A stretch of DNA of 61,000 nt, counting the filler, from Asterionella formosa (lineage: Eukaryota): NCBI GenBank assembly GCA_002256025.1. It is 5 parts of 5 records of this genome, joined end to end, with 100 filler letters (N's around TTAATTAATTAA, not from the genome) between each part and the next. Parts side by side here need not be neighbours in the genome. Positions count along the whole stretch, not along the records: positions 48,884 to 61,000 come from NKIB01007833.1; 4 more parts are not named here. The stretch is one strand, 5' to 3'. The notes below the pieces were generated by a model that did no database searches, was not told the DNA's origin, and saw nothing but the letters and a program-made list of their open reading frames with translations. Made by a program: the position numbers and the translations under genes. Positions 15,201-61,000 of the stretch are shown in pieces; within the stretch, counting starts at the first letter, position 1, and the number at the start of each line of letters is the position of its first letter.

Positions 15201-16980
15201 TTTCACAGATTCATTCGCACCTGTTGTTACGGATACTGGCCTACGTATTGTGTTTACAATTACCCTACACAGGAAAGATTTTGTATGTGAAATTGTGGAC
15301 ATCGAAGCGGCATTCCTCAAAGCTGACCTCGACGAAGAAATTTACATAGAATGGCCAGATGGAATCGCTGACTTCCACTACGAAAATGAAACGACTATGA
15401 CTGACAACTGTATCCGACTGGATAAGGCAATGTACGGCACGGTACAAGCTGCACGGCAATGGCTCAAGAAACTCCGAGACTGCCTACTTGATATGGGACT
15501 CAAGCAAAGCCGTGTCGACCCCAGCGTATTCTACGAAAAACGAGAAGGCATCCTTACCCTACTGCTATGCACCTACGTCGATGACCTCGCAGTAACCGGC
15601 AGCCAAGCCGACGTCAACAAGTTCAAGTTGCACTGAAAAAATTCTTCAACGTTAAAGAGCTTCGCCAGCTACGCAAGCATCTAGGAGTATGGTACGAATG
15701 GGGCGAAGACGAGAAAGGACGCTATCTACAGTCCGAAATGGAGGACTTTGTCAAAGATATGATTAATGACTACATGACTATATTTGGAAAGGAACCAAAG
15801 AAAGCCTCAACGCCGGGATTCCCGGGAACGGTCCTAAGTAAGAACCGAGGAGAGACGATCAAGAATAAGGAATATCGCTCCCTCGTTGGAAAAATACTTT
15901 ACTTCGTGAAGAAAATATCGCCAGTATGCGCCAACGCATGTCGTGAACTGTCACAGCACCTCAACAACCCAGGCGAAACGCACTGGCAAGCATTGGAACG
16001 CCTACTCGGGTATTTGTGTCTACATGGGGACATTGCATGCAGAATGAAACTACGTGCTCCCAACGAGCTACGTATTCAAGATGTCGTGGACAGCGCCTGC
16101 GCCTCTAATCCTGATACACGAAAAAGGGCCAGCGGTTATTTAGGAACGATCGGAGGGTGCGCCCTAATTCACTGGATATCAAAAGGACAGGATATCGTAA
16201 CGCAATCAAGCACTGAGTGTGAATACGTCGCACTCAGTAACGGCTCAAAGGAAACTGTCTTCGCAACGAATCTACTGGGCGAAATAACCACTATCGTGAT
16301 GCCTAGTCTAATGGGTGAGGAAAATACCGGCGCGATTTATTTAACGAAAAATCATCAGGTCAGGGCACGTACAAAACACATCGACGTAAGATACCACTAT
16401 GTACGAGAACAAGTCGAAAACGGAATGATTAAGGTTGAGTACGTCAATACGGAAAGGAATCCTGCAGATGTCCTAGCTAAAAATGTCATGGACAAGATTA
16501 TGAACATGCACGGATACGCGATCCAAAACGGGATGATGGATTGTTGGAACAAGGAGAGTGTTAAAGTGAGCTCATCTACGTAGTTAGGACTCGGACTCAA
16601 ACGAGTCAAACGATTCGAATGAGTCAACTTTGATGTACCAAGCTCTCATCAACCACACATTATACCTTGTTACTCCGACTATAATGAGCCGGACAATATA
16701 AGCTATTTCGGAAGACTGATAGTTTGAAAATGAATGATCATGGTTAAATACCTATGATCAGTAAGTGTGAGATAGACATGGGTCTATCTATGATTGTATG
16801 TTTCTAGAAATGCAAACAGCATCTGGAGAATAGTTTGTTTGTTTGTTCAAACAGAACAACCTAAACTAGATTAGTAAACTCACAATAAGAATATAGAAAT
16901 GGAAAGAGAAACGAACATCTCTATCTATAGTCTTCTTTGTCTAACGATATAGATCTATACAAAAAGGTAATACTTTAACA
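12224..16980 (+). mobile_element. Ty1/Copia LTR retrotransposon with pseudogenised gag-pol; 5' end lost in the gap
   Basis: Copia domain order: gag with two zinc knuckles (CKNCGKQGHKADVC, CYNCNKYVGHIARDC), protease LADTGATTH, GAG-pre-integrase H..YGH...CEGC, integrase YVDISGP/CDNVGEN, RT YVDD, RNase H SSTECEY/KHIDVRYH. Contains several stops and frameshifts. Confidence 0.95.
16559..16980 (+). repeat. 3' LTR of the Copia element (422 bp)
   Basis: Follows polypurine tract AAGGAGAG (16551..16558). Starts TGTTAAAGT and ends ACTTTAACA, a perfect 9-bp terminal inverted repeat with TG...CA ends. Confidence 0.85.
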
Positions 16981-20300: not shown

Positions 20301-21179
20301 GCATGAATACATATGATGACAATTCCAAGTAGAATGCCGATAGTATATATGATGTGGACTTGCTTTGATTGTCAAGTAGTAATGACAGACCTACACGGTT
20401 ACATGTGAATTCCAGCTGCTGGTACAACACATATATATAGTGATGTTATCACTATATACATGTTATACTACATACTACTGGGTACTACCAGTACTTGCAT
20501 GTGTGTTTGTACAGGTGCCTGTGCGTGGTATGGGGTCGATGAGACAGCAACTCCATCTTGACCATGACGAAATTATGGATTTGAATATCTTCAAGAATAT
20601 TAACAATGAACAATTTCAATTTCGCACGTTTATGTAGACTAACATAGACGAGATTATCGTTCAATAATGAAAATATTTGCACTATTATTGACAACAAAAA
20701 GTTGAAATCGGTGCTGGAATTTGTTTTTGGTCGTCATTTGCTCAGTTTTGAAGATATGACCAAAAACGAGACAGTGTTGAGTCCGTGGTGATTAGCTTGA
20801 TAACTTTGACTAGATAAGGTTTTCTATATTTATATTTTGTAGAAATAGATGAGAAAACCTGGGCGACAGTATTCTCGGAGAGGGTACAACATTTGAAGAT
20901 GCATCAAATTCCTCTACGTCAATTTTGTAGTGAGTTTCATGTAAGCAATAATTGTCGTGGTTCATAGTTCTATGGAATCTTGATAAGGTCATTTAACAGT
21001 TTAATATAGACATACTTTCAGCCATTAAACAATACACTGCTTGTCCTTTACATGAATAAAAACTTCGCATTGCGGAAATGATCACGAACACCACTGACTG
21101 ACGGTTTATGCATTTTCGGACACTTTTATGCAAAAATTGTATTCTTTCCAGTATTTATCATTTAACTCGAATACAAACT

Positions 21180-23058
21180 AGTCTCACTCAACGTGCTGAA
21201 TATGGATTTTTCACCAAATTTGATGTGTCTATGCAATATTATTCATTTGCATTAGATGTGGAGAGTCAAAATTTGTGTGCTATTTCCACTCTGTTTGGTT
21301 TATATAAATATTTACGTCTCTCTATGGGGGTAAAACAATCATCTGACATTGCCCAAGGAACCACCATGGAACAGGTTTTTGGTGATTTAGATGACATGGA
21401 CATTTATATTTATGATGCGGCTTGTATTTCTATGAATTTTAAAGATCACCTACATTCGTTGGATACTATTTTACATCGCTTGCAGGCAAATGGTTTCACA
21501 ATTAATCCATCCAAGAGTAAATGGGAAGTCCAATAGACAGATTGGTTAGGCTCTTGGCTAAATCCTAAAGGACTGAAACCTTGGTCTAAAAAGGTCCGAG
21601 CATTGAAAAATATGTCTTCACCTACCAATCTCAAACAAATCAGATCTTTTCTAGGTGCGGTTACCTACTATCGAGACATGTTTCTTCGACGTTCTGATGT
21701 TCTCGGAAAATTCACGGATTTAATTGGAACTGTTCCATTTGTCTGATAACCTATACATAAACAAGCTTTTGCAGAAATGAAAACATTATGACTTGCAGAT
21801 ACGCTCATGCGCTATCCTGATCATAATTTTTCTTTCCATCTTTTTACTGATGCTTCTGATTATCAATTAGGGTCGGTCATGATGTGAAATGATCTCTCGG
21901 TTGCTTATTATTCTCGAAAATTATCTGCAGCTCAGAAAAATTATTCCCACTATTGAAAAAGAATTACTTTCTGTCGTAGAAAATTTCAAAGAATTTCGCT
22001 CTATGTTATTGGGTGCAGCTCTACATGTTCACAATCTTATTTATAATACCTATCACACTCAACGTGTTCTACGGTGGTGACTTCATATTGAAGAATATCA
22101 TACTACTATTCACTATGTGAAAGGGACTGACAATCCTATTGCAGATTCCATCTCTGGCCTCCTCCCGAGGCTTGAGTTTTTGGTGGGGGATGATATTGGG
22201 CCGACATCTTCAGCATCAACATCCACTTCTACTTTCTCATTTTAATTAGATGATGAACCTACCTCTGCTTACCGGTATCCTCAATCATCCAATCTTGGCA
22301 GACAATATTGAATATCCTCTGGATTATAATTCAATACATGATAGACAATTTCTGGATATACAATTGATTCTCAATCAACAAACAAATCCGATAACATTTC
22401 CTTCAATCAATTTTCATGATTTACATTTAATATGTTTTGTGAAGAATCCAGGGGATACTTGGCGTATTGCTGTTCCTACATCATTATTGGATCCTATTTT
22501 TAATTGGTATCATCAGATGTTAGCTCATGTGGGTATGACAAGATCAAATGCTACAATTTCTACACATTTTTATCATCCCACATTAAAAGGAAGAGAGGAA
22601 CTTATTGTAAGCATATGTGAAGCACATCAACGTACAAAATTTTTACCTGGTGCTGTTTATGGTGAACTTCCACCTCCTAGGAATGCATTGTCATAACCAT
22701 GGTAAGAAGTCGCAGTGGATTTAATTGGTTCATGGAAGATAACAGTGGCTGCACAAGCGATTGAATTTCGTGCTTTAACTTGTGTTGACATAGTCACCAA
22801 TTTACCAGAATTTCACGTATCAATAATAAAAAATCAGAATATATTGCAATTAAATTTGAAAATGATTGGTTAGTCAGATATTCCCGTCCAGAACTTTGCA
22901 TACATGACAATGGAGTTGAATTTACTGATATTCCTTTTCTACACATGTTAGTGTTGAAAGGAGTTAAAGATGTTACTACCGCAGTCAAGAATCCACAAGC
23001 TGATGCTATCTGTGAACGTTTACATCAATCTATCAGTAAAAGTCTACGAGTTATGTTA
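21180..23058 (+). mobile_element. Heavily decayed Ty3/Gypsy pol fragment (RT-RNase H-integrase)
   Basis: RT FFTKFDVSMQYY, YKYLRLSMG, YIYDA; RNase [19 protein letters not shown]; integrase WYHQMLAHVG, VAVDLIG, HDNGVEF, NPQADAICERLH. Gypsy domain order with many stops. Confidence 0.85.
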
Positions 23059-25000
23059 AGGTTCCTGCATTTGAACCCCTAGGCAAAAATTAAAATATTG
23101 CATAGGGTTGCCGAAATTCCCTGGAACTAAGAACTTTTATGTGCTAATTTTGAATATCAATGATTCCGATTGAAATATTCAAATGAGTGGAAATTTGCGC
23201 GTATGTGTATAGATTCCATTTCAAATGCATTAAATATGTATGAATAGATTCTACATCGCTGGATGTATATATAGCTACTCTACCGAATGTATACCTACTG
23301 GGATCAACAAATATGTGTCATATGCACGACCCGGTGGCTCCGAAAAGTATTTGAATGTGCATCCTGTGCTTGTAAGCGTACACTTCCTGGTATCCTGGTA
23401 CCAGGTACCAGCAAGTTGCGGTAAAATTGCCGAAATGACGAATAGGACATCTCGGATTCACACGCCTGTAGATCCAATACTAAAATACATAATCTGGCTA
23501 TCTCGGAAAACGGTTATCATTCATTCGTGGCATGATCGTTTTGAATTCTATTATGCTAGAATTTGATTTGGCAGGAACTATTTTAGGGTCAAACTCATTT
23601 CCCAATCGAAAACCCCCCAATCAAAAAAACTTGGGTTTTTTTACCGGAGAGCTAGATTCCGTCGGGGTCAGATGCGGGCACATGAGAGGGATCAAAGAAC
23701 ATGATAGCCGACCCCCGCCAATGAGTGCACCTGTCCGGGAATACATATAGCGGTAAGATAGCGTTAGATACATACGGTTGTATGTATAAATTGGATGCTC
23801 TCTGCCTACATAACGGGTATAAGAATTGTACAATCGCTCATGAATCGAACATGAGAAATTTCCCATTACCATGATTACAAACCATGATTAAATGATTATT
23901 AATTTTCGATTTTGTACAATTGCTTAACGTTTTTATTAGTTGCTTAGATAGAATACATGTGTCGCTAGCAAGTGGTGAAATAAACGAACACGTAGCTTTG
24001 ATATTCATTGCAAAAGAGCTAAAATAGAAAATCGGCGGAAGCAACATGGCGTTCGACCGCAACGACAATATCTCCATGATTTCTTGCCGAATCAAAACCC
24101 GAGTAGTTCGTACATAACCGTCGTACATCAAGTTGACATATTCTATAATATCAGAAGCTGAAAACAACAATTGGTTTATAATTCGTGATTTATCTGTTTA
24201 CAATAGGCGTGTCATCTTTGTTACCATGATACTACTACCAAACCGGCAATCATCATGTTCCAAGAACATACCGGTACATGCTTGTAGCTATTTGCTAAAA
24301 ACCATATACTGACATGAAGTCAATTGTACCAGGGTGGTACATGGTNNNNNNNNNNNNNNNNNNNNNNNNNNNNNNNNNNNNNNNNNNNNTTAATTAATTA
24401 ANNNNNNNNNNNNNNNNNNNNNNNNNNNNNNNNNNNNNNNNNNNNCATCTGTTTTCTACTAGGCGGAGTACCAGGTACCAGAGTTTACGTGGACATTCCT
24501 CTTTGTTTCATGATTTTCACGCAAGAAGACGACATGCACCATCGGAGAAATATACTGGTATACCACTTCTTATACTCAGCACCGGTCCTCCGAGTATCAT
24601 TCAAGGAGGAGACTATGATCGACTAATATTTTCGAAGCGTTATTTACTTTCAATTTATTGTCGATCACTTTTATTGAGCATGTAAATAATATATCGTACA
24701 GTAAGTATACTGGCACATCTGTGGGCAGCCATTGCCAACATGATACATGCACTACATCAAACTTTGACCGTTGGCATATTTTTACCGTTCCATCATTCCT
24801 CACCTCAAAACAGACACAGACGAAAATCTTGGCTGTCCGCACCATTCTATTTTGACTCTCTCATATTGCTTGTTGCCTCAAATCATCAAAACTGGCGATA
24901 TATTGCCTCCCTCTAGCTTCGTTGAAAATTCAGTAAAGGGAAGGATTGCCGTCTACAGTATACAGGAAGCATTCAAGGTTCGACGGGTGAAACTCTCGAC

Positions 25001-27470
25001 ATGAGCTCTCCAACTTCTTTTTGCTCGTCCACTTCCAGCACAAGGCATTCTTCGACTCGAGCTCGTCATGTCTTTGGCGATCTTATATTAGATGTAGCTG
25101 AAAGTCCTGTCGGTAGTCTCAGCTATTCTCCATCTCCTTCTTTAGCACGTGTCAGCCCAGTAAATACAGCGAGCAAAGACAGCGCCGATGTCAGTGAAAA
25201 TCATCCGAAGGTCATCGATTTTAACAATAAGGAAAATGTGCCCACCAAGCGCCGCATTAATGAAAAGAAAGTTTCCTTTGCAGAACAATCAGATAACACT
25301 TTCGATAGCAAGGATGAACTCTATCGATTTCGCACGCAATCTCAGAGGTGGGATCTGGTCAAAAAAACGCAGGACGCAATTAATACTGCTAGCATTAGCG
25401 TCAACCAGACTCTCAATGCTGCACGTCACGCTAAAATCAATTTAAATCAAAAGCGGGCCACAGCGACAGCGAAGCTTCGCGATCAATGGAAGGAAGAAAA
25501 GGAGGAAGCACACTTATTTCACGCCGAAACAGCAAAGCAACGCCAAGAATTGCTAGCTCTCCAGAAGCAGTTGTCGACAAAGTTTCGCACGAACAAGAAT
25601 GCTCGCGATTTATTGGAGAAGCAAAAGCAACTTGACGCGATTGTTCGAGAGTCCGAGTTCAAGTCGGAGGTCTTTCGTCAACACCAAAGCAAACTCAAGG
25701 AGGAACGCTATCTCCGTCGACGAGAGTCAACTGAGAAGCGCGCAGCACTTCGAAGAGTGCACCGTGATGGGGAAGAGAAGCTGCGTATGATTCAAATCGA
25801 GGAAGACGAAGCAGTTCATGAAGAGCGATATGCAACAAGCATAGCAACGCGTGAATACAAGAAACGATGTGCTGACCATCGACGAACGAGTTTCCAATTC
25901 CGCACCGGAGATGCTCGGCGGATTCGTGAACTTCACGCCAAAATCGAATCTGACCGTAAAGTACAGTCTCAAGCGAACTACGAACTCCAATTTGCCGCCG
26001 ACCGAGATACTGATACCTATCGGAAGAAGCAAGAAGAGGAACGTCGTTATAGTTTGGCGTTCCGAAATGAGGAAGGGAGAAAGCATCGCGAGAAGGAACT
26101 ATTGCTGAGGTCAGAAAATCTGGTTGCACAACATGCAAGCTATGAACTGAAGCTGGCTGGTGAACGTGATTCTGATAAATACAAGAAATTTATGGCAGAT
26201 GAAAAACGAAAGAGTCTTGCTTTCCGCAATCAGGAAGGTCACCTGCATAAGGAATTGCGAAATCAGCAGGTACAGGAAGAGATGGTGAATATGCACCAAA
26301 ACTATGAACTCAAATGGGCCGGAGAGAAGGATGTCGAAGCGTATGAACAAAAAATGGAAGAGAACCGCAGAAACAGTCTAGCTTGGCGGAACTTAAAGGG
26401 GAAAAGAGAACGCGACAAGGAAAGGGAAAGACAATTAGAGGCACAAGCGGATGCTCATTCCAGCTTTGAACTAAAATGCGCCAGTTTGCGAGATGTTGAC
26501 GCACACCATAAAAAGATGGCAGAGCAGCGTAGAGACAGCGTTGCTGCACGCAACAAGGAAAGCCGCAAGCAACGAAACGAAACAATCAGTCGAGAGAACA
26601 ATCAAACCGAATTGGTCCATCAGGAATACGAACTCAAATGGAAAAGCGAAAACGATGTAGCGGCCTACAATCGCCACATGGAGAAAGAACGTCGAGAGAG
26701 TTTGCGCGTTCGCAATGAAGAACGAGTCAGTCATGCCAAAGTCATGGACGAGCTACGGTCTCTTGCAATTGAGCAGCAAACGGAGTCTTTGATGCTCAAA
26801 TGGGCTGGGGAGAATGATGCCAAGAATTACTTGGGCGCTGTTGAGGACGAACGGAGAAAGTCACTGAAGTTCCGTAACAAAGAAGGCAAACGACTCCGTG
26901 ACCTTGACAAAGCGGCTTATAATGCCGCTGTTTCACAAGCGCACGAAGAGGAGGTGTTGCAAGCAGCCGGTAAGCTCCACATTGGACCACATCTCATTAG
27001 CTCCACTCATACTAACCCACAGTTCTTCTCTAGCTCACAACGACGTAGAAAACTACAAGAAAGAATGCGCTAAAAGAGATCGACTTTCAATTCAATTCCG
27101 ACTTAAAGAGGCAAACATCCAACGCCTGGAGGAAGTAGCTGAACGGGAAAAACACCAGGAAATTGAGGAATTCAACAAATTACTTGAAGAACATGCATGG
27201 AGCGATGTTCAGGAGTACTTTAACGACTGCCAACAGCGCAAACGGCAGTCACTTGCTTTCCGAGCCAAGGAAAAGCGAAAGCACTTTCAGTGGGCACAAC
27301 TTGAAGCAGAAAGGGAGATTGAACGACAAAGCAAGGACTCTCGTTATCGAAGTCTTGATCGCCGGCATCAAGAAATGGCGAAAAGCAAAGAACGCGCTCG
27401 AATAGTATTGGATGCTATTCAGCATGCCGGCTGTACATTTTCGTCTAATCCAGTCGGGCATCTTGTTTGA
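25001..27470 (+). CDS. Charged alpha-helical protein (~801 aa) with ten exact 54-aa repeats; exons 25001..26969 and 27034..27470; function unknown
   Basis: Intron 26970..27033 (GTAAG...CTAAC...TAG) joins the two track ORFs and preserves the 162-nt repeat phase. Unit is roughly RRxSLxFRNxEG...YELKWAGExD. Confidence 0.85.
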
Positions 27471-36565: not shown

Positions 36566-37669
36566 NNNNNNNNNNNNNNNNNNNNNNNNNNNNNNNNNNN
36601 NNNNNNNNNTTAATTAATTAANNNNNNNNNNNNNNNNNNNNNNNNNNNNNNNNNNNNNNNNNNNNTTTGACAATAAGTGAGCATCTGATTCACTTGTCAA
36701 TAAGTAAACATCTCCAGTCATTTGTCAATAAATGTCGCATGTTTTGGGTCTTGGTTTCTAATCACTGCCTACTAAGAATATTGATTCTCGATTCGTTGGA
36801 TTCCATATATTTTATCACCATATCACCATGTTCCTTGAACACAATTTATATGTAAGTATATGATAGAAATAATAAATAATAAATATTATTTATGATGTCG
36901 TTCTGTTGATTTTGACATCAAGTATGGCATACGAACGGATTCTGGATTCCGTCCTGTGGTACACTCGTGTCCGGAATATATTGCATGTAGCCTGTTCATA
37001 TCTGACCTACGTAAATGTCGAAGTGTCCGGTAAAACTGAAACGCAACATTGGTGTGGCCACACAAGAAGTTTGGTCGTTTGTTCTGTCTTATAGTATTGG
37101 ATAAGGTGACGCACAGCACCCAATAAAATTTGATGCACAGACACACAAAAAGCATGTATGTGTCAGTATTTGTGTTAAGCTAAGAAATAGCCTGAGCAAA
37201 AAAGTAAAACGCCTACATATGATATTGTACATGATGTCAGCTTGTCCACATAGTCAATGCGCTAACTGAATGTCAATGCCATATTATTTTCCGGATGTCG
37301 GAGTGGATATTGTACTCGTACTCTGCATTGATTGCAATCGTCCCTTCAATTTTTAGTGTCAGCCACTGTGAGCTAGCTATAGCTACCAGGGAACTTCTAC
37401 TTATAGCTATTCTTACAGTATTTAGGAGCTGTGTATTCTGTGGCACTTGCGATGGCTTCTGGCTTCGATATCCGGTACCTTGTTTATTACATCGAGATAT
37501 GACTGCAAGAAACAATCAGTGAATATTATGGGAATTTAAATAGTACTAGAGTAGAGCGTAAATACTATCAGAATTATTATCGCTCAGCACTTGTTTGGGG
37601 GGAAACATGGCAAAGGCAGGCTTATAAAACAACCAAAGCGTACCCCTAATCGATCGAAGGGCATTGTTT

Positions 37670-39906: not shown

Positions 39907-40268
39907 GCTTTGTTTGTGTAGTCCATTGGGTTCCGGTTTGTGAGACAGACAGCAAGTACGGTAGGTCTTGGGCCCTCTGGGAGGCCACATGATGCGACTT
40001 CAAATCATCCACTTTTGTCAAGTTCTTGAGGTTGCGGCCCCAGATTAACCCTAGTTTAGAGTAAGACATTGCTAGGGTTGTAAAATTTGCATGGTATGCA
40101 GCTGTAGGCATATGGGGTGGTGTGAATATCTTTTGCGTTTTGACTAATGGCAGGAGGGATCTCTGTTTCCCAATAGATACAAACTATCATTCACATTTTG
40201 CATAGCTAATACTGGTATTTTGCCGAGGACAAAAGAACTTCTTTAAAGTAGCTAAATAGATTATTGTC

Positions 40269-41047
40269 NNNNNNNNNNNNNNNNNNNNNNNNNNNNNNNN
40301 NNNNNNNNNNNNNNNNNNNNNNNNNNNNNNNNNNNNNNNNNNNNNNNNNNNNNNNNNNNNNNNNNNNNNNNNNNNNNNNNNNNNNNNNNNNNNNNNNNNN
40401 NNNNNNNNNNNNNNNNNNNNNNNNNNNNNNNNNNNNNNNNNNNNNNNNNNNNNNNNNNNNNNNNNNNNNNNNNNNNNNNNNNNNNNNNNNNNNNNNNNNN
40501 NNNNNNNNNNNNNNNNNNNNNNNNNNNNNNNNNNNNNNNNNNNNNNNNNNNNNNNNNNNNNNNNNNNNNNNNNNNNNNNNNNNNNNNNNNNNNNNNNNNN
40601 NNNNNNNNNNNNNNNNNNNNNNNNNNNNNNNNNNNNNNNNNNNNNNNNNNNNNNNNNNNNNNNNNNNNNNNNNNNNNNNNNNNNNNNNNNNNNNNNNNNN
40701 NNNNNNNNNNNNNNNNNNNNNNNNNNNNNNNNNNNNNNNNNNNNNNNNNNNNNNNNNNNNNNNNNNNNNNNNNNNNNNNNNNNNNNNNNNNNNNNNNNNN
40801 NNNNNNNNNNNNNNNNNNNNNNNNNNNNNNNNNNNNNNNNNNNNNNNNNNNNNNNNNNNNNNNNNNNNNNNNNNNNNNNNNNNNNNNNNNNNNNNNNNNN
40901 NNNNNNNNNNNNNNNNNNNNNNNNNNNNNNNNNNNNNNNNNNNNNNNNNNNNNNNNNNNNNNNNNNNNNNNNNNNNNNNNNNNNNNNNNNNNNNNNNNNN
41001 NNNNNNNNNNNNNNNNNNNNNNNNNNNNNNNNNNNNNNNNNNNNNNN
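40269..41047. other. Assembly gap (779 N)
   Basis: Run of N. Confidence 0.99.
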
Positions 41048-41053
41048 ATCATA

Positions 41054-42430
41054 ATGATGCCCGGTCCACATCCCACGAAACAGAGTCATCATCATCATCA
41101 CTATCAACTCTATTCACAAAGATGGCTTGTTTTGGTTGCTTTTTCGACACTGTCCATCAACAGCGCTTGGATTTGGATAACGTGGTCCCCAATGGCTGAC
41201 GAGGTTTCTCGCTTTTGGGGCGTGACTGAAGGCGAAGTGGATGCATTATCCGCTGTGTACATGTTCATTTACGTTCTCGGTAGTTTTCCTTCCATTTGGC
41301 TTGTCGTCAACGTTATTGGTTTGGCCCGTGGCCTCTGGGTAGCCTCTATTTTAAATGTGATTGGCGCGTTGATTCGATTCATTGGGATGAATCACTACAA
41401 ATCAGTGTATTGGGGTACGTTATTTTGTGCCTTAGCACAGACATTCACATTGGCAACGCCACCATTAATTGCTGGGAACTGGTTTGGAGCCTATGAACGG
41501 GCTACAGCAACAGCCTTGGGAGTCCTTGCTAATCAGTTTGGGACTGCATTGGGTTTGGGCTCAACAATTATTTTTGATTTAATTGTCGTCCCAAGTGAGG
41601 AAAATGGCAAAGAAAAATCATTCCTAAATTTGAATTGTGTTCATTCCTATCTTGGCACTCAGCTCCTTTTCGCCTGCATTGCGCTTTGCATGGTCTTCAT
41701 TTTTGTCACTGCTGATGGACCATTGACTCCTCCAAGTTCTGCAGCAGCCTCCAAAATAGTTTCAATTGAAGAAGAGAGGGAAATGATAATCCAATTCGCT
41801 AACAAGAGTTCTGCTCATCCTCGGAAAGTGACATCACTATCCTATTTGGAATCTGTACATGTCACTGTAAATCAGACACCATGTTTTGTTTTACTTTACG
41901 GAATAGCGGTAGGAGTATTTTATACCATTCCAGCCTTCCTCAGTCAGCTTGTACCAAGTTGGTCACCAGGAAGCCGCGGTTGGTTGGGCGTCTCGTATCA
42001 GCTTGCTGGAGTCATGGGATCATACATCTCAGGACGTGTTGTTGATGTATATCAGCATCATCAACAAGTGAGTACCATTTTGCTAGCTGGTAGTGTTGCA
42101 TTGCTTGCTGCATTCACCTGGGCACTTATTTTTGAAGGTGGGTTACCAACCTGGACCTTTGTTGCAAGCAGTGGAGTAGGCTTCTGTCTAGCAGCCTTCA
42201 ACACTGTGGGCTTTGAGCTAGGTACAGCGATGACATATCCTGCAGATGAAGCTGCTGTAGCTGGTATCTTGGAGTGTGCTGCAGAGCTTGCCGGTTTTGT
42301 TCTTGTCACACTAGGGGGACAATTGAAGACAATGGATTACAACTTTATCTTGTTTCAGTTGTTGGCTGTGTTTTCCTCTCTGTCACTAATGATGGTCATG
42401 AAGGCAAAATCCACAAGACCAACAGATTGA
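41054..42430 (+). CDS. MFS transporter, FLVCR/SLC49-like (458 aa); start lies next to a gap
   Basis: YSQRWLVL...WITWSP and AQTFTLATPPLIAGNWFGAYERATATALGVLANQFG, plus GFELGTAMTYPADE; about 12 hydrophobic segments. Confidence 0.88.
   Translation: MMPGPHPTKQSHHHHHYQLYSQRWLVLVAFSTLSINSAWIWITWSPMADEVSRFWGVTEGEVDALSAVYMFIYVLGSFPSIWLVVNVIGLARGLWVASILNVIGALIRFIGMNHYKSVYWGTLFCALAQTFTLATPPLIAGNWFGAYERATATALGVLANQFGTALGLGSTIIFDLIVVPSEENGKEKSFLNLNCVHSYLGTQLLFACIALCMVFIFVTADGPLTPPSSAAASKIVSIEEEREMIIQFANKSSAHPRKVTSLSYLESVHVTVNQTPCFVLLYGIAVGVFYTIPAFLSQLVPSWSPGSRGWLGVSYQLAGVMGSYISGRVVDVYQHHQQVSTILLAGSVALLAAFTWALIFEGGLPTWTFVASSGVGFCLAAFNTVGFELGTAMTYPADEAAVAGILECAAELAGFVLVTLGGQLKTMDYNFILFQLLAVFSSLSLMMVMKAKSTRPTD

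Positions 42431-42503: not shown

Positions 42504-42587
<84 letters not shown>
42504..42587. other. 84-nt poly-G run, probably a sequencing/assembly artefact
   Basis: Pure G homopolymer, typical of no-signal calls in two-colour chemistry. Confidence 0.7.
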
Positions 42588-42588
<1 letters not shown>

Positions 42589-43092
42589 GGGGTGGCTCCT
42601 TATTAGTAGAATGTCTTCTCATACTATATCATCCTTCTGTCCTTCTGTGAAGTGACATCTTCTCTCCTGGAAACAGCCACTGACTTTCAAACCTTCTGGA
42701 TGGAGTCTCAAATAGGGAAAACACCATGTAAGTCAATACTTTAACTGTGACGTTGCAAACTGTGCTAATTTGAAGACAATTTCAAACAAGGTAAGAGTAA
42801 TACTTAGACATAAATTTTTATTGATGTACATAGTATATCAACGGCTATAGTACGATACCAGGTTCAGTATTCTTATATATATCATTACAATACTGTATTT
42901 AATTACTCGTATATTCCGTGATTAAGTACAAGCATTCCGCCAACACCTTGTACGCATGCACCGAACTGAAATCCAGAAGGACACTGCGAATCATAAATTG
43001 TAGCACAGGCTGTTCGTGTAGTTCGAAATGGTTGTCCCCTGTTAACATACATATATATATTCTAGTTCTAATACCACCTCTGCTTCCTCGCA

Positions 43093-48720: not shown

Positions 48721-49808
48721 TACTGTATTGTAATTATGCATACCTTTTTTGCTGAGAGCAGGCCATTTTGGGTATGAGCAAGCNNNNNNNNNNNNNNNNN
48801 NNNNNNNNNNNNNNNNNNNNNNNNNNNTTAATTAATTAANNNNNNNNNNNNNNNNNNNNNNNNNNNNNNNNNNNNNNNNNNNNTAAAGACTGTCAGAGGA
48901 ACTTGCATCATTTGTTTGTTGCCGTATGCAGTGAACCTTTGTTCATAATCATTCAATTAAGAGTTCACTGAGAAGAAATCATTCGAACTCATAATGGTTC
49001 CGCACACAGCGCACATTGTAAATCCGTTTATCCGTTTCGTCAACCACCAGCATTACAATTTCGCCAATCAACCCGTAAACAAACACATTCTACTTGTTCT
49101 TGTTGACATTTACAATTCTCACATGATACTACATCTACAATTGAGATTCAGCATAGGGGAAAGTGAAACTGACTGCTGTCCACATAGCTATAGTTATAGA
49201 ATGATTCTGATTACAATTTCTTTTTCATATCGCTTGTTTCAGCATTTGGCATGCTGTACTTGTTGAGGAGGATAATTCTGTTTGCGAACGCATTCGATAT
49301 TGGATAGGCGGTCCCTTTCAAGTGCACATGCTTCGATTGCATCAAGGGAAGAGAAGATATTTCGTGATATAACTGAAGAGTTTTTTTGAATTCTGGATGA
49401 AGACCTTGAGGATGATATGTGCAATACTGTCTTATAACCTCAACTGCAACATGCATGGGTGTCCAAGGATAAATCGAGCATGACTGGCGATACCTTGTGG
49501 AGAAAGTGACAGGAGATTAGTAACAAGCTTTGCAACAGTGGTATCATTTCTAGTTCAAACATCGCCAAGTATTTGCACAAACTTCCAAGTAGACAAGGTT
49601 TTGTAGGATGCATATTTCAAATTAGTCTGCTATATTTACAAACAAAGTTTCCAAAAGAAGAAACAAATGTGTCAAATCATAATTTATGTTGTAGATCTCC
49701 TACCTGCTCAATCAGCCAACAGACTCAAAATCATGGTTGTTCCAAGCCCACCTAATCATCGGGAATACAAGGACCCAACTTTGTACTTTTTGCTTGCTTT
49801 AAAGATTT

Positions 49809-49944
49809 TTCAGAAAAATTTACAATTGGTTACAGATGTGAAAGTGAGTGATGTGCATTGTAAGTATAAGTCAATGTTCAGAAAAATTTACAATTGGTTA
49901 CAGATGTGAAAGTGAGTGATGTGCATTGTAAGTATAAGTCAATG
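49809..49944. repeat. Exact 68-bp tandem duplication
   Basis: TTCAGAAAAATTTACAATTGG...GTATAAGTCAATG at 49809..49876 and 49877..49944. Confidence 0.9.
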
Positions 49945-55186: not shown

Positions 55187-55751
55187 AACTGGGGATTGGA
55201 ATGTGAACCCATTTATTAGAATGAACATGTCGAAGTCCTTGAGGGACGATTCATTTGTTGCACTCTATTATTCATATTAAATGAAACACATATTCAAATA
55301 GGAAAACGATATTTTGTCCCCCTTTTGTGATGATGCGAAATATTTATTTCCTTTACTGTACGGTATGTACCAGTATAATAAAAGATTATTAACAAGGAGG
55401 TTTTGTTGTAGCAAACGAAATTTCTATGTATCATGTATACACGTGTATTTACGGTAGTCATCACGTCATCACATCGACTTGTAAACCTTAGTATATACAT
55501 ATATATATACCGGTATGTAGTATGAAGTACCTAGGTCTTCAGGTAAGGAAGGAACAAGGAATCCCCTTCGGTCTGTCTGTGGCTCCTGCCTTGTTCACTC
55601 CTTTTACTCCTTACGCGTTACTCGATACATGATTGCGTGATGAGGCGCCGACTCAACAATGGCAGCCCTGACTTTACAAGTTGCTTCTCACAACCCTTTT
55701 TTTGTTGGACAAAGTTTTCGTGTCTCTTTTCAAAAATACGACCTTACGACC

Positions 55752-56156
55752 ATGTTCATCCCAAAGCAGAACCGCATTGCCACCTTCAGCTACCTCTTCA
55801 AGGAGGGCGTGCTGGTGGTCAAGAAGGACACTCGTTCTCCAACCCACCCGGCCATTGAAGGACCTTCCAACTTGGAGGTTTTGTGCCTCATGAAGTCCTT
55901 GAAATCCAGAGGATTCGTCCGCATCACCTTCAACTGGCAGTACAACTATTGCTACTTGACCACGGAAGGGATCGAGTACCTGCGCAACTACTTGGCCTTG
56001 CCAGCTGAAATTGTGCCAGCGACTCACAAAAAGACGGCCGCCCGCCCAGGTGGACGTGATCAAGAGGACGAAAAGCCAGAGCGTGGAGGAGACCGTCCTC
56101 CAGCCTTTCGTGGTGGAGAACGCAGTGGGGGATTCGGACGTGGAGGTGGTATGTAA
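55752..56156 (+). CDS. RPS10: 40S ribosomal protein S10 (eS10)
   Basis: MFIPKQNR...YLFKEGVLVVKKD...NLEVLCLMKSLKSRGFV..FNWQYNY..LT.EGIEYLRNYLALPAEIVPATHKK and an RGG tail. The true start is ATG 55752. Confidence 0.97.
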   Translation: MFIPKQNRIATFSYLFKEGVLVVKKDTRSPTHPAIEGPSNLEVLCLMKSLKSRGFVRITFNWQYNYCYLTTEGIEYLRNYLALPAEIVPATHKKTAARPGGRDQEDEKPERGGDRPPAFRGGERSGGFGRGGGM

Positions 56157-56413: not shown

Positions 56414-57127
56414 CTATACATTTGTTTGTCTTGCAGCGCCTCCTCCAACGGCAGACGTTGCAGCTGCGCCAGCAAGCATGCCAAATAAATTGTGTCGAAT
56501 GGCAGCCATGGCCCCCTGCTGTGCCCCTTCTTGGACCATTTGAGTGAACTTCGCCTTTTGGTCTGACGAGCACTTGTAGTATCCATACACATTGGCCACT
56601 GACAAGGACCCGCCCATACAAACTGTCAACAACCAGCCCAACTGAAATTTCAGTAACCCAACCATAAAGAGACACATCCACACCAGGGGTGTAACATACA
56701 GGACAGTCCAGAACACTGACGTGTCAAACTTGTTCGACGCCCGCTCGTTGGCAGATTCGAATATCCAACGAGTGGTTTCCCCGTCCACTTGGTTCCACCA
56801 TCGCAGTCCCACCAACAAGCGGCCAGTGATGTTCTTGACGACCCAAAAGTCCGCTGCGAGCAGCAAAATGCAACACACTGTGACGGTAATGAACTGAGCC
56901 CCACTGACTCCTCCTCGTCCGTCCGAGACGAACCACCCCCCAAGGATGTACAAGGACAGGGCAAGTAGTTTAAAGAGACAGTGAAAGATGCACGCGACGG
57001 GGTGCGAACTGTTCTTCAAGGAGAGGCTGCTGCCTTCTGTTGCGCCCCCGCCGCCAGCGTTTCGGTTTCCTTCCCAGCTGGACTGGTCCGGCTCTCCTTC
57101 GATGCTGAATTGAAGGTCGTGCGACAT
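56414..57127 (-). CDS. TVP23: Golgi membrane protein TVP23 (FAM18)
   Basis: HPVACIFHCLFK, LLAADFWVVKNITGRLLVGLRWWN, WIFES and NVYGYYKC. Confidence 0.95.
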   Translation of the reverse strand: MSHDLQFSIEGEPDQSSWEGNRNAGGGGATEGSSLSLKNSSHPVACIFHCLFKLLALSLYILGGWFVSDGRGGVSGAQFITVTVCCILLLAADFWVVKNITGRLLVGLRWWNQVDGETTRWIFESANERASNKFDTSVFWTVLYVTPLVWMCLFMVGLLKFQLGWLLTVCMGGSLSVANVYGYYKCSSDQKAKFTQMVQEGAQQGAMAAIRHNLFGMLAGAAATSAVGGGAARQTNV

Positions 57128-58495
57128 GGAAAGAAAGGACTATACAAGAGGGACTTGACAGGATGTGATTAAAGAATACACTGTTGTTGCAGGATGTGAA
57201 AACGGAATACACTGTTGTTGCAATATACCGGTACATATGTACAACCTGAAGTGGCAACGAGTACCGGTACCCGTGCAGTAGTAGCAAATCCGCAGAAGCG
57301 ACAACTGTCGTGCCGTGCCTAGCAACAAGAATACCATATCCAAGTCCTGCTTCTGCTAATACATACTACTGGTCCAATGTACTACTAGGTTCTCCACTAC
57401 CACGTAGAATAACACGTTTTGTCACGAATTTCTGATACCAGTACTAGTTCAAAAATCTGAAACAATCCATCAGTAGCTGAGCAAGTAGCTAGCGCTTCTC
57501 TATGTATTAACGAGCTACACTGAACATTCATTTGTATAATCGATATGGTTGTTTAGTCATACTAATAGATCGAATGTAATGAAATAGAGGAGGTTCAAAG
57601 CAGTTTTTAGGAGGTAGTACCAGGAACTTCACTTGGTTGTTGTGGTTGCCTCTTGTGTGTCATCAAAAAGCAGTCTTGATTTTGATTTCATGGATGTCAT
57701 TGCTGTTGTGGCGCTTGTGATAGCATTTGATGCTTTGGGTAACATTTCCATTATTCTGGCACTTCTTGGTTGCTGGATGAAGTGGGTCCTTTGAACCTGG
57801 TGTTGAGATTCGCAATTTTTTTCATTTTCCAATCATGCCTGCATTCAATAACAGACAACCCCTAGTACTAGATTTATTTCCGAAAACTATTGGCAGCATT
57901 CATGGCATGATGTTAATGTACTTTGAGGTCACCAATGCTGTGGAAATTCAGAGTAAAACATCCCTCTTATCAGTGCTAGAGTAGTTGTCATCATCAGCCA
58001 TTCTTGTGACAATCCTTTGTATAAATTATGTTTAGTTTCATTGTGATGAAACTACTTCTACATGTGATTTCTATGTCAAATCATACAAGATCTAAAAGTC
58101 TGAAAATATATATCTTTCTTACTTCACACGATTTTCAACTTCTTCATATCTCAACCAATCCTGGTCACATTTCTGACTTAAGCTCCTCACCATCATACTA
58201 AATACATTAGCTTTAGTTTGAAATGTGTCAAGGATTAGCAGGGAAATGAAGAAAATTGATTTCCAATCAACCCCTCATTTGTTTAGCCCCATTGTAGAAA
58301 TCATACCAAGTGCATGATGTAGTAATGGTACCTGGTAGTAATTGATGGCAAATATGCATTACTACTATGAAACGTAGTACAGAGAACCACCGGTATTTTA
58401 CATAAAACATGTATTGTAACAGTATTTTACACCTCCTTTTTCATTTTCAGCGCTATGATTGTCGTCTCATGGGATCATAATAGCCACTAAAGCAG

Positions 58496-61000
58496 ATGGC
58501 ATACCCTTCCTTCCTTCCACTATTTGGATGCTTTCTCTGCCTATGGTTACTAACTTCCTGTCAGGGATTCATCTCATGCGAGCAACATTACTCAAAGCTC
58601 CGCCTCAATCAAGAATTATTCACAACAAGCAAAAATACTGAAAGTTATCAGAAAACAGAACAGCAAGCTGTTGATACATTTATACAAGCTAGGCCATCCA
58701 AACGATTAGCCCCGAGGGAGCTCCATGAAAATTACCTTCCAGAGCTGGAGGTTCATCTGCTGGAACAGAACCAAAAACTATCGGTAAACGCATCGAAATG
58801 GGCAATTGGGATCAGGCTCGGACGAACCAAGTTTTTGGCTGAGTATGCCACAAGATTGCAGCGACTTGGTCTGTTGACGGAGAAGTCAATTCGACGCCTC
58901 CAGTCGCCTGAAGGTGTATTGAGCCCGAAGGAACTTCATGAAAAGTATCTTCTGGAGCTGGAGATTCATTATCAGGATGGGAACCAAAAACTATCGGTAA
59001 ACGCATCGATATGGGCCAGTAAGATCAGGCGCGGCAGAACCAAAATTTTGGCTGAGTATGCCACAAGATTGCAGCAGCTTGGTCTGTTGACGGAGGAAAC
59101 AATTCAAACAAATGTTACGGATAACATTCATTTTGAGAGCCGAAATCATCGCCATATATTGCCTGAAGGAGTCAAACAATCGTCCCCGACAACAAGCTTT
59201 GAAAAGTACCTTCTGGAGCTGGAGGATCATCTTCAGGATAGGAAACAAAAGCCATCTAAGAACGCATGGAGATGGGCCGGTAGGATCAGGCACGGCCAGA
59301 ATAAGTATTCATCTGAGTATGCCACAAGATTGCGGCGACTTTTTCTGTTGACAGAGAAGTCAATTCAACGCGATATTATTGAGAATCGCCCAAATTTGCC
59401 AAAAGAAGTCAAACGATTGACCCCGAAGGAACTTCATGAAAAGTACCTTCCGGAGCTGGAAGTTCATCACCTGGATAACACTAAAAAACCATCGAAAGCC
59501 GCTTCAATATGGGCCAATAGAATCCGGTGCGGACAAACCAAAATTTTGTCTGAGTATTTCACGAGATTACAGCAGCTTGGTCTGTTCACGGAGAAGTCAA
59601 TTCAACGCCGTCAATCGCCTGAAGGTAGATTAACCCCTGCGAAACTTGATAAAAAGTACCTTCTAGAGCTGGAGCTTCATCATCAGGATAGAAACCAAAA
59701 ACTATCGGTAAACGCATCGATATGGGCCAGTAAGATCAGGCGCGGCAGAACCAAAATTTTGGCTGAGTATGCCACAAGATTGCATCAGCTTGGTCTGTTG
59801 TCGGAGGAGACAATTCAAACAAATGTTACGGATAACATTCATTTTGAGAGCCGAAATCATCGCCATAAATTGCCTGAAGGAGTCAAACAATCGTCCCCGA
59901 CAACAAGCTTTGAAAAGTACCTTCTGGAGCTGGAGGATCATCATCAGGATGGAAAACGAATGGCATCTGAAAACGCATGGAGATGGGCCGGTAGGATCAG
60001 GCACGGACGAATCAAGTATTCGGCTGAGTACGCCACGAGATTGCAGCGACTTTTTCTGTTGACAGAGAAGTCAATTCAACGCGATATTATTGAGAATCGC
60101 CCAAATTTGCCAAAAGAAGTCAAACGATTGACCCCGAAGGAACTTCATGAAAAGTACCTTCCGGAGCTGGAAGTTCATCATCTGGATAACACTAAAAAAC
60201 CATCGAAAGCCGCTTCAATATGGGCCAATAGAATCCGGCGCAGACAAACCAAAATTTTGTCTGAGTATTTCACGAGATTACAGCAGCTTGGTTTGTTCAC
60301 GGAGAAGTCAATTCAACGCCGTCAATCGCCTGAAGGTGTATTTACCTTGAAGAAACTTGATGAAAAGTATCTTCTGGAGCTGGAGATTCATTATCAGGAT
60401 GAGAATCAAAAACTATCGGTAAACGCATCGATATGGGCCAGTAAGATCAGGCGCGGCAGAACCAAAATTTTGGCTGAGTATGCCACAAGATTGCATCAGC
60501 TTGGTCTGTTGTCGGAGGAGACAATTCAAACAAATGTTACGGATAATATTGATTTTGAGAGCCGAAATCATCGCCATAAATTGCCTGAAGGAGTCAAACA
60601 ATCGTCCCCGACAACAAGCTTTGAAAAGCACCTTCTGGAGCTGGAGGATCATCATCAGGATGGAAAACGAATGCCATCTGAGAACGCATTGAAATGGGCC
60701 AGTGGGATCAGGCACGGCCAGAATAAGTATTCATCTGAGTATGCCACAAGATTGCGGCGACTGTTTCTGTTGACAGAGAAGTCAATTCAACGCGATATTA
60801 TTGAGAATCGCCCAAATTTGCCAAAAGAAGTCAAACGATTGTCCCCGAAGGAACTTCATGAAAATTTTCTTCGGGAGCTGGAAGTTCATCACCTGGATAA
60901 CACTAAAAAACCATCGAAAGCCGCTTCAATATGGGCCAATAGAATCCGGTGCGGACAAACCAAAATTTTGTCTGAGTATTTCACGAGATTACAGCAGCTT
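58496..61000 (+). CDS. Tandem helical-repeat protein (at least 835 aa, 3' partial) with a signal + Phe presequence and at least 10 HA-domain-like modules; absent from the ORF track
   Basis: Manual translation from ATG 58496 (in-frame stops just upstream) has no stop through 61000. It begins MAYPSFLPLFGCFLCLWLLTSCQG-F; modules are roughly EKYLxELExH...SxNAxxWAxxIRxGxxKxxxEYxTRLxxLxL. Confidence 0.88.
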   Translation, partial: MAYPSFLPLFGCFLCLWLLTSCQGFISCEQHYSKLRLNQELFTTSKNTESYQKTEQQAVDTFIQARPSKRLAPRELHENYLPELEVHLLEQNQKLSVNASKWAIGIRLGRTKFLAEYATRLQRLGLLTEKSIRRLQSPEGVLSPKELHEKYLLELEIHYQDGNQKLSVNASIWASKIRRGRTKILAEYATRLQQLGLLTEETIQTNVTDNIHFESRNHRHILPEGVKQSSPTTSFEKYLLELEDHLQDRKQKPSKNAWRWAGRIRHGQNKYSSEYATRLRRLFLLTEKSIQRDIIENRPNLPKEVKRLTPKELHEKYLPELEVHHLDNTKKPSKAASIWANRIRCGQTKILSEYFTRLQQLGLFTEKSIQRRQSPEGRLTPAKLDKKYLLELELHHQDRNQKLSVNASIWASKIRRGRTKILAEYATRLHQLGLLSEETIQTNVTDNIHFESRNHRHKLPEGVKQSSPTTSFEKYLLELEDHHQDGKRMASENAWRWAGRIRHGRIKYSAEYATRLQRLFLLTEKSIQRDIIENRPNLPKEVKRLTPKELHEKYLPELEVHHLDNTKKPSKAASIWANRIRRRQTKILSEYFTRLQQLGLFTEKSIQRRQSPEGVFTLKKLDEKYLLELEIHYQDENQKLSVNASIWASKIRRGRTKILAEYATRLHQLGLLSEETIQTNVTDNIDFESRNHRHKLPEGVKQSSPTTSFEKHLLELEDHHQDGKRMPSENALKWASGIRHGQNKYSSEYATRLRRLFLLTEKSIQRDIIENRPNLPKEVKRLSPKELHENFLRELEVHHLDNTKKPSKAASIWANRIRCGQTKILSEYFTRLQQL
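58721..61000 (+). repeat. Coding higher-order tandem repeat: 711-bp unit made of 261+237+213-bp monomers
   Basis: Anchor AAAAGTA(C/T)C at 58941, 59202, 59439, 59652 and onward; CTATCGGTAAACGCATCGATATGG at 58991, 59702 and 60413. Confidence 0.95.

What the first reader, a model, noticed from the sequence alone, without database searches (positions are those of the whole stretch)
58721..61000. Higher-order (ABC)n architecture, linkers in 8-aa steps and chimeric modules suggest recent repeat shuffling
Seen: monomer periods are 87, 79 and 71 aa, all frame-preserving and differing by exactly 24 nt, repeated as a near-identical 237-aa trimer three times. Module 9 looks mosaic: GKRM.SEN as in module 6, KWA.GIR as in module 1, and HGQNKYSSEY..RLRR as in module 3. 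Many differences between trimer copies change amino acids. Inference: unequal crossover and gene conversion are generating new module combinations, as in PRDM9-type or TALE arrays, and the linker steps may set binding-site spacing.
Basis: partly seen in the sequence, partly recalled or inferred. Interest (0 to 1): 0.7.

Follow-up and report, generated by a model that had tools for sequence, protein, structure and literature searches.

The report
Shuffled three-module repeat array, diatom protein
A gene of a freshwater alga encodes a basic, signal-peptide-bearing protein whose small three-helix modules have recently been multiplied as a block of three and visibly reshuffled by recombination; this is a good example of repeat evolution, but nothing shows a TALE- or PRDM9-like recognition code.

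Summary
An intron-free ORF (58496 to the window end, 835 codons, still open) encodes a hydrophobic leader and ten modules with periods 71-87-79 aa repeated three times, plus the start of a fourth unit. Units are 88-94% identical in DNA.

Modules 8 and 9 are statistically supported mosaics of their sister copies (runs test p=0.0004). Module 1 has a B-like core with an A-type linker. Environmental alleles carry other combinations and possibly another copy number.

Recombination is supported; the PRDM9/TALE analogy is not. pN/pS stays below 1 everywhere (0.23-0.94). Variation spreads over 14-29 positions per class. The longest linker is predicted disordered. The 24-nt steps are sums of several indels.

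The family is tiny: 6 hits among 1.84 billion representatives. It includes a probable neighbouring paralog without the array. The module is probably a very divergent helicase-associated (HA) three-helix domain, on weak but convergent evidence. The gene appears in poly(A) RNA. Function is inferred: multivalent nucleic-acid binding, possibly in the plastid.

The parts
58424..58495 (+). probable 5' untranslated region
   Evidence: Poly(A) metatranscriptome contig X8 record 26 starts at 58424. X8 depth is 0 at 57900-58211 and over 100 from 58420.
58496..58567 (+). start codon and hydrophobic leader (residues 1-24), probable signal peptide; the next residue is F
   Evidence: ORF; hydropathy. The cleavage site is inferred, since no signal-peptide predictor was available.
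58568..58708 (+). N-terminal spacer (residues 25-71), a possible weak transit-peptide-like stretch
   Evidence: Composition of the first 20 residues: K+R 2, D+E 2, S+T 4.
58709..58921 (+). module 1 (71 aa): B-like core with an A-type linker, a chimera
   Evidence: Core identity is 80-83% to B modules and 75-76% to A modules.
58922..59182 (+). module 2 (B, 87 aa)
59183..59419 (+). module 3 (C, 79 aa)
59420..59632 (+). module 4 (A, 71 aa); modelled as three helices plus a short linker helix
   Evidence: pLDDT 77.7, pTM 0.61
59633..59893 (+). module 5 (B, 87 aa); its linker insertion is predicted disordered
59894..60130 (+). module 6 (C, 79 aa)
60131..60343 (+). module 7 (A, 71 aa)
60344..60604 (+). 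module 8 (B, 87 aa), a mosaic: module-2-like at about 60349-60403, module-5-like at about 60496-60579
   Evidence: runs test on the B class p=0.025
60605..60841 (+). module 9 (C, 79 aa), a mosaic: module-6-like at 60654-60680, four private changes at 60690-60704, module-3-like at 60682 and 60718-60756
   Evidence: runs test on the C class p=0.007
60842..61000 (+). module 10 (A type, first 53 aa), the start of a fourth unit; the gene runs off the window
   Evidence: The junction 60764-60864 is covered by an RNA contig with 0 differences (record 32).

Best explanation
This is a real, expressed, lineage-restricted gene of a freshwater microalga; earlier notes of this scan call it a diatom. It encodes a strongly basic protein that enters the secretory route through an N-terminal hydrophobic leader.

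The protein consists of small three-helix modules joined by short, partly disordered linkers. The modules are most likely very divergent relatives of the helicase-associated (HA) domain.

The ancestral layout is kept in a probably adjacent paralog and in relatives from other organisms. It is a leader plus 3-6 modules of about 85-88 aa. In this gene a shortened module type, lacking 7 residues of the loop after helix 1, was duplicated into three linker classes: A 71, B 87 and C 79 aa. The three-module block was then amplified head to tail, giving at least 3.2 units here.

Because the units are 88-94% identical, they mispair. Unequal crossover changes unit number. Short gene-conversion tracts move patches between sister modules, between module classes and between the two paralogs. 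That produces the mosaics seen in modules 1, 8 and 9.

Selection on the modules is relaxed purifying, strongest on helix 3, and not diversifying.

Inferred function: a multivalent, beads-on-a-string binder of nucleic acid, possibly in the plastid. More modules would add avidity or reach rather than spell a code.

Shown: the repeat anatomy, the mosaicism, presence in RNA contigs, the rarity of the family and the paralog. Inferred: HA ancestry (about 0.6), nucleic-acid binding (about 0.4) and plastid location (about 0.3).
For: Anatomy.

Higher-order structure: core identity is 89-98% within a class (modules 4-9) and 64-79% between classes.

Mosaics: none of 20000 shuffles reaches the observed excursion. 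Runs tests give p=0.0004 (B+C), 0.025 (B) and 0.007 (C). Four-gamete incompatibilities across alleles are 2 of 6, 11 of 36 and 58 of 171.

Homogenised linkers: synonymous difference is 0.021 in linkers and about 0.10 in the rest of the module.

Alleles and copy number: P0005 (1043 aa) is leader + (ABC)x3 + D-E-F. P0001 is A-B-C-D-E-F. Window module 10 shares its first residue S with the first A of P0001.

Paralog without the array: P0016 and P0022 (614 aa) have nearly the same leader and module 1, then six modules in all. Their longest contigs (19342 and 12791 nt) have the same lengths as those of P0004 and P0001. Module 1 of P0016 equals the window's, while that of P0022 is the other type. 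A DNA contig of run X7 leaves the window at 58892 into the paralog's linker.

Expression: the poly(A) metatranscriptome X8 has depth 0 at 57900-58211 and at least 69.8 in 23 of 24 bins between 58420 and 60915. No joints were seen.

Rarity: 6 hits at E<=0.001 among 1.84 billion representatives. A profile search gave only 5 proteins, all from clusters already found.

HA link:
- Pfam HA is sub-threshold in P0008 (E 2.7e-4, 21.6 bits, cut-off 28.4) and P0032 (E 6.1e-4).
- The Atlas top three clusters for P0006 are all HA, with scores 0.77-0.79.
- The best tblastn hit among 72556 plasmids is an annotated HA protein (E 0.7), confirmed by Pfam at 131.7 bits.
- hhalign of the family against nine bona fide HA copies gives P 0.0013, and P 0.0035 and 0.0039 over 59 collinear columns. 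No column shuffle reaches the score, 0 of 200 in each of two runs.

Fold: three helices plus a linker helix.

Charge: pI 9.8, net +43 in 835 aa.

Targeting: hydrophobic leader followed by F. Relative P0007 has a leader ending GAS followed by F and 20 residues with no acidic residue. The F at +1 rule comes from passages of PMC4329603.
Against: The window's own protein has no Pfam HA hit at E<=10 and no usable Atlas hit.

The solved HA domain 2kta ranks only 44th of 48161 chains, with Z 3.3, rmsd 6.2 and 57 residues aligned. That lies inside a tie of generic helical matches whose best Z is 4.8. Foldseek found nothing. HH probabilities are low, 8.5-18%.

No helicase or other catalytic domain is present. 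No binding of any ligand has been shown.

The stretch after the presumed cleavage site has as many acidic as basic residues (2 and 2), which is poor for a transit peptide.

All public runs were available only as short contigs, and none spans even one unit. Unit order and number therefore rest on the window's assembly, whose method I do not know. Exact repeats of up to 140 nt link neighbouring units. The switch point in module 8 lies in a 92-93-nt stretch that is identical in all three units.

The allele proteins come from metagenome assemblies and could themselves be chimeric or collapsed.

That the paralog is adjacent rests only on equal contig lengths.
Confidence: 0.6

Rival explanations
1. 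The array order, copy number and some mosaics are products of assembling a 711-nt repeat from short reads. The true locus would have fewer or differently ordered modules.
For: Logan contigs of all four runs break inside the array, and no piece spans a unit. Two environmental contigs seem to begin inside or just after the array: P0001 starts in a C linker and P0004 starts at module D. Exact shared stretches reach 140 nt. The switch point in module 8 lies in a 92-93-nt stretch that is identical in all three units.
Against: The A-B-C order recurs in two independent environmental proteins, P0005 and P0001. The diagnostic sites of module 9 lie 8-14 nt apart, so single reads must link them. No differing letters were listed at 60605-60841 in any of the 4 runs, although X2, X7 and X8 have depth there. 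An RNA contig crosses the module 9/10 junction with 0 differences. The longest exact repeats, 140 nt, are shorter than ordinary paired-read spans.
Confidence: 0.12
2. It is a secreted or cell-surface structural repeat protein, for example one associated with the cell wall. It would not bind nucleic acid, and the repeat number would tune length or valency outside the cell.
For: It has a hydrophobic leader and tandem repeats with variable copy number. No nucleic-acid-binding family reaches threshold. The post-leader stretch is a poor transit peptide.
Against: Every HA lead points to a domain that is annotated only beside helicases. The protein has high positive charge, with a basic helix 2. Relative P0007 has a leader followed by F and an acid-free, basic, hydroxyl-rich stretch, as plastid pre-sequences do. 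The composition shows nothing that I recall as typical of diatom silica-associated proteins; this is recalled, not tested.
Confidence: 0.2
3. It is a programmable reader in the sense of TALE or PRDM9. Each module would read one unit of a target through a few hypervariable residues, diversifying selection would drive shuffling, and the 8-aa linker steps would set the register.
For: The scaffold is conserved while variation is concentrated around the end of helix 1, the loop and helix 2. There is recombination between modules and allelic diversity.
Against: pN/pS in the variable patch is 0.59, and no region exceeds 0.94. Between 14 and 29 positions vary per class. Synonymous sites vary as much as non-synonymous ones in the cores. 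Inter-module geometry is uncertain (pTM 0.42) and the B linker is disordered. The linker steps are composite indels.
Confidence: 0.07

Closest known systems
HA, helicase-associated domain (Pfam PF03457; solved example PDB 2kta)
   Same: Both are modules of about 60-65 residues with three predicted helices. Aromatic or hydrophobic positions in helix 1, a Gly after helix 1, a Trp at the start of helix 2 and a Leu-x-x-Leu-Gly at the end align collinearly. Both occur as tandem arrays, and both are basic.
   Different: The Pfam match is below threshold or absent. There is no helicase in the protein. The array modules lack 7 loop residues. This protein has a secretory or plastid-type leader. The structural match to 2kta is weak, at Z 3.3.
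Higher-order tandem repeats evolving in concert by unequal crossover and gene conversion (recalled examples: alpha-satellite arrays, TALE repeat arrays, PRDM9 zinc-finger arrays)
   Same: A multi-monomer unit is repeated with higher identity between units than between monomers inside a unit. There are mosaic copies, probable copy-number differences between alleles and exchange with a paralog.
   Different: The unit is coding and consists of three modules that differ mainly in linker length. There is no sign of diversifying selection and no small set of specificity residues.
Organelle-targeted helical-repeat nucleic-acid binders such as PPR and OPR proteins (recalled)
   Same: Both are arrays of short helical modules that are basic, nuclear-encoded, carry an N-terminal targeting leader and belong to lineage-specific, fast-evolving families.
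   Different: No sequence or fold match to these families stands out. The modules here have three helices and flexible linkers rather than a packed solenoid. Both the location and RNA binding are untested.

Membership tests
HA domain (PF03457) | Match to the Pfam HA model at or above the gathering score (28.4 bits) | tested here: not met
   The window ORF, P0001, P0004, P0006, P0007, P0009 and P0016 have no HA row at E<=10. P0008 scores 21.6 bits and P0032 20.5 bits, both below the cut-off.
HA domain (PF03457) | Profile-profile similarity to bona fide HA copies | tested here: inconclusive
   hhalign P-values are 0.0013, 0.0035 and 0.0039. The alignments are collinear. No column shuffle reaches the score, 0 of 200 in each of two runs. 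HH probability is only 8.5-18%.
HA domain (PF03457) | Three-helix fold like the solved HA domain 2kta | tested here: inconclusive
   The model has three helices plus a linker helix. 2kta is confirmed as HA by profile A4 at E 2.6e-4. It aligns at Z 3.3, rmsd 6.2, 57 residues, rank 44 of 48161, tied with generic helical hits.
HA domain (PF03457) | Attachment to an SF2 helicase or nuclease motor, as the family name implies | tested here: not met
   Neither the window ORF nor any relative has a helicase domain. The bacterial comparison protein has ResIII, DEAD and Helicase_C.
TALE / PRDM9-type recognition arrays | Near-identical repeats whose differences are confined to a few specificity residues | tested here: not met
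   Variable positions per class number 29 (A), 14 (B) and 22 (C) across window and allele modules.
TALE / PRDM9-type recognition arrays | Excess of non-synonymous change at the variable sites | tested here: not met
   pN/pS is 0.59 in the variable patch, and the maximum is 0.94 (linker, 9 differences). dN/dS between units is 0.42-0.59. Counts are small, and the pairs were pooled and are not independent.
TALE / PRDM9-type recognition arrays | Repeat shuffling by unequal crossover or gene conversion | tested here: met
Higher-order repeat array under concerted evolution | Units are more alike than the monomers within a unit | tested here: met
   Core identity is 89-98% within a class (modules 4-9) and 64-79% between classes.
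Higher-order repeat array under concerted evolution | Copy-number variation among alleles | tested here: inconclusive
   P0005 has three units before D-E-F, while the window has at least 3.2. P0005 comes from a 3396-nt metagenome contig that may be collapsed.
Bipartite plastid pre-sequence of diatoms (ASAFAP type) | Signal peptide with F, W, Y or L at +1 of the cleavage site | tested here: inconclusive
   A hydrophobic leader is followed by F at residue 25. The rule comes from passages of PMC4329603. No SignalP or ASAFind was available, so the cleavage site is my guess.
Bipartite plastid pre-sequence of diatoms (ASAFAP type) | [quoted passage not shown] | tested here: inconclusive
   Window: K+R 2 and D+E 2 in 20 residues. 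Relative P0007: K+R 3 and D+E 0.

The most novel reading that the evidence does not exclude
Diatoms may own a previously unrecognised class of organelle-targeted nucleic-acid readers built from degenerate HA modules. In that class a three-module block would act as the unit of amplification and exchange, so that strains differ in the number and make-up of reading modules. That would be a natural, recombining, modular binder comparable in principle to PPR, OPR or TALE arrays.
Probability: 0.1. Interest if true: 0.7.

Novelty: new variant of a known kind. Interest (0 to 1): 0.4.

Why it matters
It shows how a protein repeat array grows. A shortened module acquires three linker lengths, the triplet becomes the amplified unit, and conversion then mixes patches between copies, alleles and a paralog.

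It also points to an unannotated, very rare protein family of freshwater microalgae that is probably derived from the HA domain, whose own function is still untested. If the protein binds nucleic acid in the plastid, the family would add a new type of helical-repeat factor to organelle gene expression in algae with secondary plastids.

As it stands the locus is mainly a tidy case of concerted evolution. It is also a practical warning that this region needs long reads.

Tried and rejected
Own genome: none is held, so the part of the gene beyond 61000 could not be read.

Metagenome DNA for the alleles: 90 pattern matches, none a relative. Allele comparisons are therefore at protein level only. 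I did not use the second scan, because the first had used patterns taken from P0005 itself.

Earlier notes of this scan: nothing near the place or by sequence.

PDB by sequence: no relative, best E 0.069.

Fold searches: the three-module model had best Foldseek E 0.66. The single module had best Foldseek E 5.9 and best VIA Z 4.8.

Atlas with the window ORF: no usable hit.

Window ORFs: 30 of the 82 ORFs found were scanned against Pfam. None carries HA.

Literature:
- 'helicase associated domain' + 'diatom' gave 1 paper, which concerns a different HA2 protein.
- 'PF03457' gave 3 papers, unrelated judging by the listing.
- A five-term search found nothing relevant in the 12 papers listed.
I found no description of this family. 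These searches are narrow, and no supplements were read.

Rejected ideas:
- A 24-nt insertion unit behind the linker steps. Nucleotide alignments need 2-3 gaps per step.
- Module 1 of the window as donor of the private patch in module 9.
- The repeated 100-aa ORFs on the minus strand as genes. They recur with the repeat period and are by-products of it.

Read laying: run X2 has no cover at 59564-59771 and X8 none at 59564-59667. With contigs this says nothing.
Full report
SETTING. The window is eukaryotic nuclear DNA. Pfam finds a myosin head, an ankyrin-kinase protein, copia- and gypsy-type retroelement pieces, an MFS transporter, an MscS channel, a PrsW protease, ribosomal protein S10e (55659-56153) and a DUF846 protein (56417-57127, minus strand). 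Earlier notes of this scan call the genome that of a freshwater diatom or alga. I did not verify this. It does fit the labels of the public runs that hold the stretch: algae, freshwater and lake-water metagenomes. No whole genome is held.

THE OBSERVATION. One ORF starts at ATG 58496 and is still open at 61000, after 835 codons. After a hydrophobic leader and a 47-residue spacer, a helix-1 motif recurs with steps of 71, 87 and 79 aa, three times over. That defines modules 1-9 and a truncated module 10.
- The three 711-nt units are 88.3%, 89.9% and 94.2% identical.
- Over the first 168 nt of each module, copies of one class are 89-98% identical (modules 4-9). Different classes are 64-79% identical. 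This is a true higher-order repeat.

MOSAICS. I treated unit 3 as a possible recombinant of units 1 and 2. Its 81 informative sites fall into four blocks: like 2, like 1, like 2, like 1.
- None of 20000 shuffles reaches the observed excursion.
- The long first block partly reflects the divergence of module 1, so I repeated the test without class A. That gives 35 sites in 8 runs, p=0.0004. Class B alone gives p=0.025 and class C alone p=0.007.
- In module 9 the switch from module-6-like to module-3-like letters includes synonymous sites.
- That switch surrounds four private changes spaced 8-14 nt from the flanking diagnostic sites. Single sequencing reads must have linked them.
- The switch in module 8 lies inside a 92-93-nt stretch that is identical in all three units. 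It is more exposed to assembly error.
- The private patch of module 9 has no donor in the window; the longest exact match is 10 nt. The same peptide occurs in module 1 of paralog alleles, and partly in module D.

ALLELES, PARALOG, RELATIVES. A word-indexed search found a single cluster. Its members include three informative proteins:
- P0005 (1043 aa): leader, (ABC)x3, then three longer modules D, E and F.
- P0001: A-B-C-D-E-F.
- P0004: D-E-F.

The last C before D has its own linker ending. Window module 9 has the internal ending and is followed by another A. The window allele therefore has at least one unit more than P0005, unless P0005, from a 3396-nt contig, is collapsed.

Across window, P0005 and P0001 modules, many site pairs show all four combinations: 2 of 6 (A), 11 of 36 (B) and 58 of 171 (C).

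An exhaustive search of 1.84 billion representatives gave only 6 hits, and a profile search added none. Cluster members reveal a 614-aa paralog, P0016/P0022.
- It has almost the same leader and module 1, followed by three ancestral-type and two more divergent modules.
- Its contigs have the same lengths as those of P0004 and P0001. It is therefore probably the next gene downstream; this is an inference.
- Module 1 of P0016 equals the window's, while that of P0022 carries the other patch type. This indicates exchange between the paralogs.
- The paralog also explains the half-depth 'other letters' in run X1 at 58557 and 58692, and the contig of run X7 that leaves the window at 58892 into the paralog's linker.
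- Modules 1, A, B, C and D lack 7 residues of the loop after helix 1 that the ancestral-type modules have.

I read this as follows. One short module was duplicated and given three linker lengths, and the triplet was then amplified between the N-terminus and module D.

SELECTION AND LINKERS. dN/dS between units is 0.42-0.59. I pooled nine same-class pairs, which are not independent. The results are in the table.

| Region | pN/pS |
|---|---|
| N-cap and helix 1 | 0.87 |
| End of helix 1, loop, helix 2 | 0.59 |
| Helix 3 | 0.23 |
| Linker | 0.94 (only 9 differences) |

Synonymous difference is about 0.10 in the cores but 0.021 in the linkers. The class-specific linkers are thus the most recently homogenised part, and the cores receive patches from other classes.

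The equal 24-nt steps are real as arithmetic. In nucleotide alignment, however, A vs C needs gaps of 8, 13 and 3, and C vs B needs gaps of 15 and 9. I take the equality as unexplained and possibly coincidental.

WHAT THE MODULE IS. Pfam gives nothing for the window protein. Several weak lines converge on the helicase-associated (HA) domain:
- Sub-threshold Pfam HA hits in P0008 and P0032.
- The three nearest Atlas clusters to P0006 are all HA, with scores 0.77-0.79. This is a lead only.
- The best tblastn hit in the plasmid collection, at E 0.7, is an annotated HA protein. It carries HA at 131.7 bits.
- Profile-profile alignments of the family to nine bona fide HA copies from that plasmid give P 0.0013-0.0039 and are collinear. 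None of 200 column shuffles reaches the score in either of two runs, and a reversed control scores 8.1.

AlphaFold models give three helices plus a short linker helix per module (pLDDT 77.7 and pTM 0.61 for one module). Packing between modules is uncertain (pTM 0.42), and the B linker is disordered.

A lead from earlier notes named the solved HA domain 2kta. I confirmed it as HA by profile, at E 2.6e-4. It aligns to the module model only at Z 3.3, rank 44 of 48161, within a tie of generic helical hits. I therefore say the module works like, and probably descends from, HA. I do not file it as a member.

EXPRESSION AND TARGETING. A poly(A) metatranscriptome (run X8) has no cover over the upstream spacer (57900-58211). 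It has depth of at least 69.8 in 23 of 24 bins between 58420 and 60915. No joints were seen, so no introns. These are contigs, so levels and transcript ends are not shown.

The protein is basic, with pI 9.8 and net charge +43. The leader is followed by F. [quoted passage not shown] The next 20 residues are a mediocre transit peptide here, with K+R 2 and D+E 2. In relative P0007 they are a good one, with K+R 3 and D+E 0.

VERDICT. The anatomy and the recombination reading stand. The code-like reading does not. The gene is best seen as a lineage-specific HA-like repeat protein. A three-module block has recently been amplified in it and is being reshuffled, under relaxed purifying selection. Its likely role is multivalent nucleic-acid binding, possibly in the plastid, and that role is unproven. 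Long-range order and copy number still need long reads.

Noticed in passing
window 42504-42592: A run of 89 bases that is 97% G lies just after the MFS-transporter ORF (41054-42427). It may be a real homopolymer or a sequencing or assembly artefact.
   Followed up: partly
window 12124-12223, 24346-24445, 36566-36665, 48784-48883 and 40269-41047: Paired 44-N runs recur about every 12.2 kb, and there is one 779-N run. The long ORFs on both strands at 40190-41196 are only translated Ns. I cannot tell whether these runs are masks or gaps.
   Followed up: partly
window 17797-18184: A 66-nt (or 131-nt) tandem repeat with about 5 copies at 77-81% matches, lying between retroelement-derived ORFs.
   Followed up: no
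window 49809-49944: A perfect 68-nt direct duplication (2.0 copies, 100% matches).
   Followed up: no
window 12325-16580 and 18819-22693: Fragmented copia-type (gag, RVT_2) and other retroelement ORFs (integrase, RVT_1), split over several frames and probably decayed.
   Followed up: no
window 25001-27070: A 690-aa ORF on the plus strand with no Pfam family at E<=0.001.
   Followed up: no
window 2022-8248: A myosin head is split over two adjacent ORFs (2022-3428 and 3458-8248). The second continues into IQ, ankyrin repeats and a protein-kinase domain. This is probably one gene with an intron and an unusual myosin-ankyrin-kinase fusion.
   Followed up: no
proteins P0016/P0022 (not in the window): A 614-aa paralog shares the leader and module 1 with the window gene and seems to lie on the same environmental contigs as the 3' end of the array gene. 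Its two C-terminal modules are much more divergent.
   Followed up: partly
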